A stretch of 724 bases of DNA from Escherichia coli. Its GTDB lineage: Bacteria > Pseudomonadota > Gammaproteobacteria > Enterobacterales > Enterobacteriaceae. Of the stretch, positions 1 through 724 are shown piece after piece (positions within the stretch are counted from its first letter, which is position 1; every line of letters begins with the position of its first letter). The DNA is taken from assembly GCF_003334815.1 (NCBI RefSeq), contig NZ_QOWO01000119.1; one strand, given 5' to 3'. A model generated the notes under the pieces. The model saw only the letters and a program-made list of their open reading frames with translations. It made no database searches and was not told the DNA's origin. Both the position numbers and the translations under genes were made by a program.

Positions 1-724
1 GTAAGTCACTGTGTGGATTATCATAACGGTAGCGGGTGATATCGCCGTCAGGGGCAGTTTCCTGAATCAGACGGCCCAATTCATCATATTCCCGGCGCAA
101 TTCCAGCCCGTCAGGCCCGGTGGCTGACGTTAACTGGTTGTGGTGGTTATAGTAAAACGCCGATGCCCTGCCATCCGGCGTGGTTATGCGCGTGATGAGG
201 CCCGTCACCACATCCGGGCTGTACTCTGTTGTCCTGCCTGCGGCATCCGTCTGTGCCCTGAGCCTGCCCACGGCGTCAAACTGACTCTGCGTGACGCTGC
301 CGTCCGCGTGTTCCTTTTTCACCACCCGCTTCAGCCCGGCTTCGCCCTGCGTGTGCAGCACTTCACGGCGGTCCAGGCTGTCGGTGATGGTGATGCGGTC
401 CTTCTCATACTGATACGTGTAGCTTAAGCCTGCCGGGTTTAGCTGTTCTGTCACCCGCCCGTCGCTGTCGTAACGGTAACGGATTTCCGGCCGGCCCGTG
501 TGACGGTGCGCCACCATCCGGCCCCGGTATTTATCATCGTAAGTAAAGCTGCGCACCTGTTTGCCACTACGGTCATACACCACCGCCAGTTCGCCGCGTG
601 GCGTCCAGCCATAGCGCACCAGCGGCGCGGCAGGTAAATTCTCCGGGTATTCCGGGTCGTGCGTCAGCCACACGGCAGACAGACGGATGCCGTTGTCCCG
701 GCCATATTCGGTGTAACCCGGCAG
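1..724 (-). CDS. Rhs-family / YD-repeat polymorphic-toxin core protein, internal fragment (partial at both ends; enterobacterial RhsA-E-like, paralog not assignable)
   Basis: Reverse-complement frame (codons at + 724-722 ... 4-2; + position 1 is the first base of the next codon) is open for all 241 codons with no stop. Translation: LPGYTEYGRDNGIRLSAVWLTHDPEYPENLPAAPLVRYGWTPRGELAVVYDRSGKQVRSFTYDDKYRGRMVAHRHTGRPEIRYRYDSDGRVTEQLNPAGLSYTYQYEKDRITITDSLDRREVLHTQGEAGLKRVVKKEHADGSVTQSQFDAVGRLRAQTDAAGRTTEYSPDVVTGLITRITTPDGRASAFYYNHHNQLTSATGPDGLELRREYDELGRLIQETAPDGDITRYRYDNPHSDL. It contains recurring YD-repeat signatures (xRYxYDxxGRxxxE/Q) at roughly regular intervals and is rich in R/Y/D/G/T, as expected for Rhs cores. 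Third codon positions are G/C-biased (about 21 of the first 30 codons). The family assignment rests on motif recognition and recollection of E. coli Rhs core sequence, not on a database search. Confidence 0.92.
   Translation of the reverse strand, partial: MPGYTEYGRDNGIRLSAVWLTHDPEYPENLPAAPLVRYGWTPRGELAVVYDRSGKQVRSFTYDDKYRGRMVAHRHTGRPEIRYRYDSDGRVTEQLNPAGLSYTYQYEKDRITITDSLDRREVLHTQGEAGLKRVVKKEHADGSVTQSQFDAVGRLRAQTDAAGRTTEYSPDVVTGLITRITTPDGRASAFYYNHHNQLTSATGPDGLELRREYDELGRLIQETAPDGDITRYRYDNPHSDL

What the first reader, a model, noticed from the sequence alone, without database searches (positions are those of the whole stretch)
1..724. Likely multi-copy paralogous core: recombination substrate and assembly or locus-assignment caution
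Established knowledge: enterobacterial genomes commonly carry several Rhs elements whose cores are near-identical over kilobases (the name derives from rearrangement hot spot), and they mediate RecA-dependent duplications and inversions and cause short-read assembly collapse. Inference: a 724-bp core-internal window cannot be uniquely assigned to one Rhs locus, and any variant calls or coverage in it may mix paralogs.
Basis: inference. Interest (0 to 1): 0.25.

Follow-up and report, generated by a model that had tools for sequence, protein, structure and literature searches.

The report
Multi-copy E. coli Rhs core fragment
The window is an internal piece of the well-known E. coli Rhs toxin "core" gene, which most strains carry in two or three nearly identical copies, so it cannot be pinned to one chromosomal locus; this is ordinary and already known.

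Summary
Confirmed and ordinary. The minus strand is one open frame (241 aa). It equals residues 277-517 of both RhsA and RhsB of E. coli K-12, with one synonymous DNA difference at window position 401.

Copy number in E. coli:
- In K-12, rhsA and rhsB are base-for-base identical across the window, which sits inside an exact 1,811-nt shared run. rhsC is 96.8% identical and rhsD 74%.
- Of 5,426 complete E. coli genomes, 3,885 carry the sequence, at 12,129 places (median 3 per genome, range 1-7).
- In an evenly spaced sample, 59 of 60 genomes have two or more copies. BL21(DE3) has one.
- The same sequence type sits at the rhsC locus in strain M217, so sequence does not identify locus.

The source genome was not found, so its own copy number is untested.

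The recombination claim needs trimming. The recA-dependent rhsA/rhsB duplication was recovered under selection. K-12 copies are direct repeats, which predicts duplications or deletions rather than inversions. Jackson et al. 2009 found no reported natural Rhs-mediated rearrangement.

Assembly trouble is shown only indirectly: contigs that end inside the core, core-only contigs filed under unrelated taxa, and one scrambled "complete" genome.

Interest is low.

The parts
2..724 (-). Internal segment of an Rhs core ORF (clade I, RhsA-B-C-F type). It encodes 241 aa identical to residues 277-517 of K-12 RhsA and RhsB. Both ends of the gene lie outside the window.
   Evidence: Only open frame. RHS_core E=2.7e-138. 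723/724 nt identical to K-12 rhsA and rhsB. Peptide found at residue 277 of both proteins.
20..472 (-). Stretch with the significant YD (RHS) repeat matches, aa 85-235 of the window peptide. It forms part of the beta-sheet wall of the Rhs shell.
   Evidence: Five Pfam PF05593 hits with E<=0.001. TIGR01643. Homology to the shell of Tse5 8cp6 at E=1.3e-38 and to other solved Rhs shells.
401..401 (.). The only difference from K-12 rhsA/rhsB: C on the + strand, making Lys codon AAG instead of AAA, which is synonymous. K-12 rhsC carries the same base as the window here.
   Evidence: The 120-nt context (341-460) is exact in only 9 complete genomes, two of which were fetched and are about 97% identical to the window elsewhere.
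561..599 (.). Patch that discriminates paralogs: 8 of the 23 sites separating the rhsA/B type from the K-12 rhsC type. It is the most useful part of the window for telling copy types apart.
   Evidence: gene-strand window positions 126-164. A 51-nt probe over 555-605 finds 6,240 places in 2,658 genomes, median 2 per genome.

Best explanation
The window is nt 829-1552 of the roughly 3.7-kb GC-rich core of an E. coli-type Rhs gene of the rhsA/rhsB sequence type.

As protein, it contributes YD-repeat beta-strands to the hollow shell that encloses the variable C-terminal toxin. This role is inferred from homology to solved Rhs shells.

As DNA, it is one member of a dispersed family of direct repeats, usually 2-3 copies per E. 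coli chromosome.
- Some copies are identical over more than 1.8 kb, so reads, variants and coverage from this window cannot be attributed to one locus without spanning information.
- The copies are good substrates for RecA-dependent homologous exchange. That means unequal crossing-over, giving duplications or deletions between direct repeats, and gene conversion, which keeps the cores alike and moves sequence types between loci.

Shown here: identity, copy numbers, and the lack of any link between sequence type and locus. Taken from the literature: recA dependence and the rhsA/rhsB duplication. Inferred: gene conversion as the homogenising process.
For: Identity:
- One open frame, RHS_core and YD repeats, 99.86% identity to K-12 rhsA and rhsB.

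Anatomy of the K-12 homologues:
- The core ends at PxxxxDPxGL, residue 1238.
- Core GC is 0.62 against 0.36-0.41 for the tips. The window's GC is 0.604.

Structure:
- Tse5 8cp6 at E=1.3e-38, plus ten other T6SS-associated Rhs-type chains.
- The shell role is described in PMC10684867.

Copy number:
- 12,129 places in 3,885 genomes, median 3.
- 59 of 60 sampled genomes have at least 2 copies.
- The rhsA/B-type probe has a median of 2 places, and 52 of 60 sampled genomes have at least 2.

Indistinguishability:
- rhsA equals rhsB over the window.
- The exact shared runs are 1,811 and 1,214 nt.
- All 575 possible 150-mers are identical between the two genes.

Homogenisation:
- The 30 rhsA/rhsB differences cluster at the two ends of the core. 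None of 200,000 random placements leaves an exact run that long.
- The M217 rhsC-locus copy is of the rhsA/B type, whereas the K-12 rhsC copy is 3.2% divergent.
- B4103-1 has an rhsB tip plus yhhH at the yibF (rhsA) locus.

Recombination in the literature:
- recA-dependent unequal crossover between rhsA and rhsB (PMC2935791). The two genes lie 142,991 bp apart in direct orientation.
- About 2% of structural variants in mutation-accumulation lines arose through non-IS repeats such as rhs (PMC5289635).
Against: - The source genome is unknown. There is no exact match in 5,426 complete E. coli genomes. The central 120-mer has no match in GTDB representatives, and its single JGI metagenome match is not the source. 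Copy number in the actual genome is therefore a population-based expectation.
- Single-copy carriers exist, such as BL21(DE3).
- The rhsC-type copy differs at 23 sites, so 150-nt reads carry 2-10 mismatches against it and can usually be separated from it. rhsD-type cores, at 74% identity, do not cross-map.
- Jackson et al. 2009 argue that these loci are not real rearrangement hot spots in nature.
- There is no Chi site in the window.
Confidence: 0.93

Rival explanations
1. The window is single-copy in its source genome, from a strain like BL21(DE3) that kept only one clade I core. The mapping and assembly caution would then not apply.
For: - BL21(DE3) has one place.
- 8 of 60 sampled genomes have a single place for the rhsA/B-type 51-nt probe.
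- 1,541 of 5,426 genomes have no copy at all, which shows these loci are dispensable.
Against: - 59 of 60 sampled carriers have at least 2 places.
- All 14 sampled genomes whose best copy is at least 99.6% identical to the window, the class the source most resembles, have 2 or 3 places.
Confidence: 0.05
2. The window's one unusual base (position 401) is not a true allele of one locus. It would be a product of paralog mixing: a polishing or consensus error from mis-mapped rhsC-type reads, or a very short gene-conversion tract from an rhsC-type copy.
For: - The exact 724-mer is absent from all 5,426 complete genomes, while hundreds carry the version that differs at this one base.
- The variant base is the one K-12 rhsC has at that site.
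- Discrepant Illumina calls in rhsC are documented (PMC6703438).
Against: - Only 1 of the 24 sites that separate K-12 rhsA/B from rhsC in this window carries the rhsC base.
- The nearest diagnostic sites, 21 and 28 nt away, are of the rhsA/B type, so any tract would be under 49 nt.
- An ordinary synonymous A-to-G transition explains the base equally well.
- Nine genomes carry the same 120-nt context, so the base exists in nature.
Confidence: 0.15
3. Rhs cores are true hot spots that frequently reshape natural chromosomes by duplication and inversion, as the name and the first reader's wording imply.
For: - The original recA-dependent rhsA/rhsB duplication (PMC2935791).
- Rare structural variants mediated by rhs in mutation-accumulation lines (PMC5289635).
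- One complete genome, 11899A_LBHALD, joins the rhsC flank to the pdeA region through a scrambled core.
Against: - Jackson et al. 2009 found no published case of natural Rhs-mediated rearrangement and call the original phenotype an artefact of selection.
- IS elements account for 96% of structural variants in the mutation-accumulation lines.
- All K-12 rhs genes are direct repeats, so inversions are not expected.
- The 11899A_LBHALD junctions are unique among 5,426 genomes. One joins core nt 2703 directly to core nt 1, with no homology between them, which looks like misassembly.
- The other non-K-12 loci inspected kept the K-12 upstream flank.
Confidence: 0.1

Closest known systems
E. coli K-12 rhsA (b3593) and rhsB (b3482), core region
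   Same: 723 of 724 nt and 241 of 241 aa are identical, in the same frame and at the same position (nt 829-1552, aa 277-517). GC content is similarly high.
   Different: One synonymous base differs, at window position 401. The window alone cannot say which locus it comes from, rhsA, rhsB or another. The variable toxin tip and the immunity gene that define each element lie outside it.
E. coli K-12 rhsC (b0700) and rhsD (b0497)
   Same: Same gene family and architecture: a core ending in PxxxxDPxGL followed by a variable tip. rhsC shares the window's base at position 401.
   Different: rhsC differs at 23 nt and 9 aa in the window (96.8% identity). rhsD is only 74% identical and belongs to a different subfamily.
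Solved Rhs shells: Tse5 (8cp6), P. protegens RhsA (7q97), Salmonella bongori Rhs core (8qjd), Tse15 (8uxt)
   Same: YD-repeat wall of a beta-cocoon that encapsulates a C-terminal toxin. Sequence homology ranges from E=1.3e-38 to about 1e-21. The role is described in PMC10684867.
   Different: These are distant homologues from other genera. No structure of an E. coli clade I Rhs was found, and secretion of the K-12 proteins was not examined here.
Other dispersed chromosomal repeats (rRNA operons, IS elements)
   Same: Kilobase-scale near-identical copies that break short-read assemblies and serve as substrates for RecA-dependent exchange (PMC7430833; PMC5289635).
   Different: Rhs cores are protein-coding and non-mobile. 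They are far less often implicated in rearrangements than IS elements or, in natural genomes, than phage, IS elements and rRNA operons.

Membership tests
Rhs element core (NCBIfam NF041261 RHS_core; Pfam PF05593 / TIGR01643 YD repeats) | Tandem YD-peptide repeats | tested here: met
   Five PF05593 hits with E<=0.001. TIGR01643 at E=1.1e-20 with 3 stretches.
Rhs element core (NCBIfam NF041261 RHS_core; Pfam PF05593 / TIGR01643 YD repeats) | Full-length equivalog score at or above the curated cut-off (2000 bits) | tested here: inconclusive
   The score is 462.8 bits, E=2.7e-138, colinear over profile positions 285-525 of 1261. A 241-aa fragment cannot reach a cut-off set for the whole protein.
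E. coli clade I / RhsA-B-C-F subfamily | Near-identity of the core DNA to K-12 rhsA/B/C (a few percent divergence within the subfamily, over 20% to rhsD/E) | tested here: met
   99.86% identity to rhsA and rhsB, 96.8% to rhsC, 74% to rhsD.
E. coli clade I / RhsA-B-C-F subfamily | GC-rich core (about 62%) contrasting with AT-rich tips | tested here: met
   Window GC is 0.604. K-12 cores are 0.616-0.619 and tips 0.36-0.41.
Complete Rhs toxin element | Core ends in PxxxxDPxGL, followed by a variable C-terminal toxin and a downstream immunity gene | not testable with these tools
   This lies outside the 724-nt window and the source contig is unknown. It is present in the K-12 homologues (motif at aa 1238; yibA, yhhH and ybfB downstream).
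Complete Rhs toxin element | Export by a type VI secretion system (PAAR/VgrG association) | not tested
   Nothing in the window bears on this. Only the literature statement is available (PMC3967940).
Multi-copy dispersed repeat in the source genome | Two or more copies at about 95% identity or better in the same genome | not testable with these tools
   The source genome was not identified. Across E. coli, 59 of 60 sampled carriers have at least 2 places, and K-12 has 3, two of them identical.

The most novel reading that the evidence does not exclude
The window's single difference from the common rhsA/B haplotype is the footprint of a very short gene-conversion tract (under 49 nt) from an rhsC-type paralog. 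Together with rhsA/B-type sequence at the rhsC locus in M217, this would mean that Rhs cores are undergoing ongoing concerted evolution, with sequence types moving between loci within E. coli lineages.

A much less likely reading is that the small 'circular plasmid' records made of Rhs sequence are real excised circles of the kind Jackson et al. hypothesised. The one inspected is indel-rich and carries unique chromosomal flank, so it looks like an artefact.
Probability: 0.25. Interest if true: 0.15.

Novelty: already known. Interest (0 to 1): 0.08.

Why it matters
This is mainly a practical caution. Variant calls, coverage and locus labels from this 724-nt stretch are unreliable unless long reads or locus-specific flanks are used. 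RefSeq itself labels the same sequence RhsA, RhsB or RhsC. Core-only contigs also turn up filed under unrelated organisms or as "plasmids". Biologically it adds nothing new: Rhs cores as multi-copy YD-repeat toxin shells and as recombination substrates have been described since 1984.

Tried and rejected
- Source hunt. A 120-mer around position 401 gave 0 hits in GTDB representative genomes. It gave one JGI metagenome contig that is only 98.6% identical over the window, so it is not the source.
- Chi sites as a recombination enhancer. There is no exact GCTGGTGG. Three one-mismatch sites against 1.04 expected, reached in 15 of 200 shuffles, is not significant.
- Internal DNA repeats. Only short, imperfect two-copy families were found.
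- The perfect 14-nt inverted repeat at 241-254 and 679-692. That length is reached in 4% of codon shuffles, and the two arms fall in different reading frames, so it is chance.
- Plus-strand ORFs of up to 95 aa. These were rejected as antisense artefacts of a GC-rich gene, because the minus frame is open throughout and identical to RhsA/B.
- The 11899A_LBHALD locus as a natural Rhs-mediated inversion. Its junctions are unique among 5,426 genomes and one lacks any homology, so it cannot be told from a misassembly.

Full report
**What is in the window**

Only one of the six frames is open from end to end: the minus strand read from position 724. It gives a 241-aa peptide rich in YD motifs. The plus-strand ORFs of up to 95 aa are antisense by-products of a GC-rich gene.

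The peptide matches three family models:
- NCBIfam RHS_core (NF041261) at E=2.7e-138, colinear with profile positions 285-525 of 1261.
- TIGR01643 YD_repeat.
- Pfam RHS_repeat, with five significant matches spanning aa 85-235.

The 462.8-bit score is below the 2000-bit equivalog cut-off only because the query is a fragment.

Against solved structures the best relatives are the shells of T6SS Rhs toxins. Tse5 (8cp6) scores E=1.3e-38, and P. protegens RhsA (7q97), Salmonella bongori Rhs and Tse15 score about 1e-22. In those proteins the YD repeats form a spiralling beta-sheet cocoon that encloses the C-terminal toxin (PMC10684867). The window's protein-level role is inferred from that homology.

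**Exact identity**

Against the five K-12 MG1655 rhs loci, the window compares as follows:

| K-12 gene | Identity over the window | Differences |
|---|---|---|
| rhsA | 99.86% | 1 nt |
| rhsB | 99.86% | 1 nt, the same site |
| rhsC | 96.8% | 23 nt, 9 aa |
| rhsD | 74% | n/a |
| rhsE | no match | the pseudogene lacks this part |

- The window corresponds to nt 829-1552 of rhsA and rhsB, and the peptide is found at residue 277 of both proteins.
- The one difference is at window position 401 (C on the + strand, making Lys codon AAG rather than AAA). It is synonymous, and K-12 rhsC carries the window's base there.
- The K-12 homologues show the classic architecture. The core ends at PxxxxDPxGL (residue 1238). 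Core GC is 0.62 against 0.36-0.41 for the tips, and the window's GC is 0.604.

**The multi-copy claim**

Megablast of the window against 5,426 complete E. coli genomes finds 12,129 places in 3,885 genomes, with a median of 3 per genome and a range of 1-7. In 60 records sampled evenly down the ranking, 59 have two or more places. The exception is BL21(DE3). All 14 sampled genomes whose best copy is at least 99.6% identical have 2 or 3 places.

I then used a 51-nt probe over the patch where the rhsA/B and rhsC types differ most (window 555-605).
- With megablast's 28-nt word it cannot seed on the K-12 rhsC type.
- It still finds 6,240 places in 2,658 genomes, with a median of 2 per genome.
- 52 of 60 sampled genomes have two or more places.

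About 28% of complete genomes carry no copy.

**How indistinguishable the copies are**

- K-12 rhsA and rhsB are 99.19% identical over 3,713 nt.
- The window lies inside an exact shared run of 1,811 nt (gene nt 82-1892), which is followed by another exact run of 1,214 nt.
- Every possible 100-, 150- or 250-nt read from the window is identical between the two genes.
- The nearest discriminating sites are 748 nt and 341 nt beyond the window's two ends.
- Reads of 150 nt differ from K-12 rhsC at 2-10 positions, so that copy is usually separable. rhsD-type cores do not cross-map.

**Sequence type does not identify locus**

- The one-mismatch hits are annotated RhsA, RhsB, RhsC or simply "RHS element core protein" in different strains.
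- In strain M217 the copy next to ybfA/kdp, which is the rhsC locus, carries the K-12 rhsA/B-type sequence. Its rhsA-locus copy differs from the window at three sites.
- In B4103-1 the yibF (rhsA) locus carries an rhsB-type tip and yhhH, followed by yibA.
- The 30 rhsA/rhsB differences in K-12 are crowded at the two ends of the core. None of 200,000 random placements leaves an exact run of 1,811 nt.

Together these results fit gene conversion, or recent exchange, that homogenises the cores. The process itself is inferred, not observed.

**The recombination claim**

- The literature supports a recA-dependent unequal crossover between rhsA and rhsB that duplicates the interval between them. It was recovered under selection for glyS amplification (PMC2935791).
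- The two genes lie 142,991 bp apart in direct orientation.
- All five K-12 rhs genes are on the same strand. Simple homologous exchange there predicts duplications or deletions, not inversions.
- Jackson et al. 2009 state that no natural chromosomal rearrangement mediated by rhs had been reported, and they regard the original phenotype as an artefact of selection.
- In mutation-accumulation lines, 96% of structural variants were IS-mediated and about 2% arose through other repeats such as rhs (PMC5289635).
- Recombination within a single rhs locus, between the main gene and an orphan fragment, is selected in Salmonella (PMC3967940).
- The window has no Chi site.

The core is therefore a bona fide recombination substrate, but "hot spot" and "inversions" overstate what is documented.

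**The assembly claim**

No reads were available, so collapse could not be tested directly. The indirect evidence is consistent and consists of the following cases:
- A JGI metagenome contig carries the yibF flank and stops inside the core.
- A 5,191-bp linear "plasmid" filed under Klebsiella oxytoca is an E. coli kdpA-kdpF-ybfA-rhs fragment that ends at core nt 2771.
- A 2,340-bp K. pneumoniae record ends inside the window.
- A 10,245-bp "circular plasmid" is an indel-rich fragment of the rhsA locus.
- In the species-representative genomes, a conserved 50-mer from the window occurs only on two short core-only contigs. One is filed under Rheinheimera sp. (553 bp, 100% identical to K-12 rhsA/rhsB) and the other under an Oscillospiraceae MAG (2,726 bp).
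- A published Illumina-versus-nanopore comparison in O157 lists a discrepant Illumina SNV in rhsC and attributes such calls to mis-mapping in repeats (PMC6703438).

**The source**

- No complete E. coli genome holds the exact 724-mer.
- The 120-mer around position 401 is exact in nine complete genomes. The two that were fetched are only about 97% identical over the rest of the window.
- That 120-mer is absent from GTDB representatives.
- It is present in one metagenome contig, which is not the source.

The window is therefore the common rhsA/B haplotype plus one base. Whether that base is a real allele, a very short conversion tract from an rhsC-type copy, or a consensus error cannot be decided here.

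**Verdict**

It remains untested for the unknown source genome. The background statement about inversions and hot-spot behaviour should be toned down. All of this is textbook Rhs biology, so novelty is nil and interest is low.

Noticed in passing
L008 (NZ_CP130447.1, strain 11899A_LBHALD) 3563-7651; breakpoints correspond to window position 266: A 'complete' genome has a scrambled Rhs core, ordered [nt 1-1287][nt 1158-2703][nt 1-1287]. It joins the kdp-ybfA (rhsC) flank to pdeA and a stub of IS421. Both junctions are unique among 5,426 genomes, so it is either a misassembly or a private rearrangement.
   Followed up: partly
L013 (NZ_CP069926.1), L014 (CP088628.1), NZ_CP069827.1: Small non-mobilizable 'plasmid' records in PLSDB are chromosomal Rhs-locus fragments. 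One is E. coli kdp-ybfA-rhs DNA filed under Klebsiella oxytoca and ends inside the core. One 'circular' 10-kb record is indel-rich rhsA-locus sequence. One 2.3-kb K. pneumoniae record ends inside the window.
   Followed up: partly
L015 (Rheinheimera sp. A13L, 553 bp) and L016 (Oscillospiraceae MAG scaffold, 2,726 bp): Short contigs made only of Rhs core sit in assemblies of unrelated taxa. L015 is 100% identical to K-12 rhsA/rhsB nt 556-1108. They are probably E. coli contamination or mis-binning.
   Followed up: partly
L009 and L010 (strain M217); L012 (strain B4103-1): In M217 the rhsC-locus core is of the K-12 rhsA/B sequence type. In B4103-1 the yibF (rhsA) locus carries an rhsB tip plus yhhH ahead of yibA. 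Both are natural exchanges of core or tip between Rhs loci.
   Followed up: partly
window 401: The only base that differs from K-12 rhsA/rhsB matches the K-12 rhsC base, while the neighbouring diagnostic sites do not. It could be a point mutation, a micro-conversion or a consensus artefact.
   Followed up: partly
window 241-254 and 679-692: A perfect 14-nt inverted repeat separated by 424 nt. That length is reached in 4% of codon-preserving shuffles and the arms lie in different reading frames, so it is judged to be chance.
   Followed up: yes
L007 (OGYW01007552.1) 1-35: The metagenome contig with the rhsA flank ends at about core nt 3300, where the K-12 paralogs begin to diverge. Its first 35 nt do not align to K-12 rhsA.
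   Followed up: no
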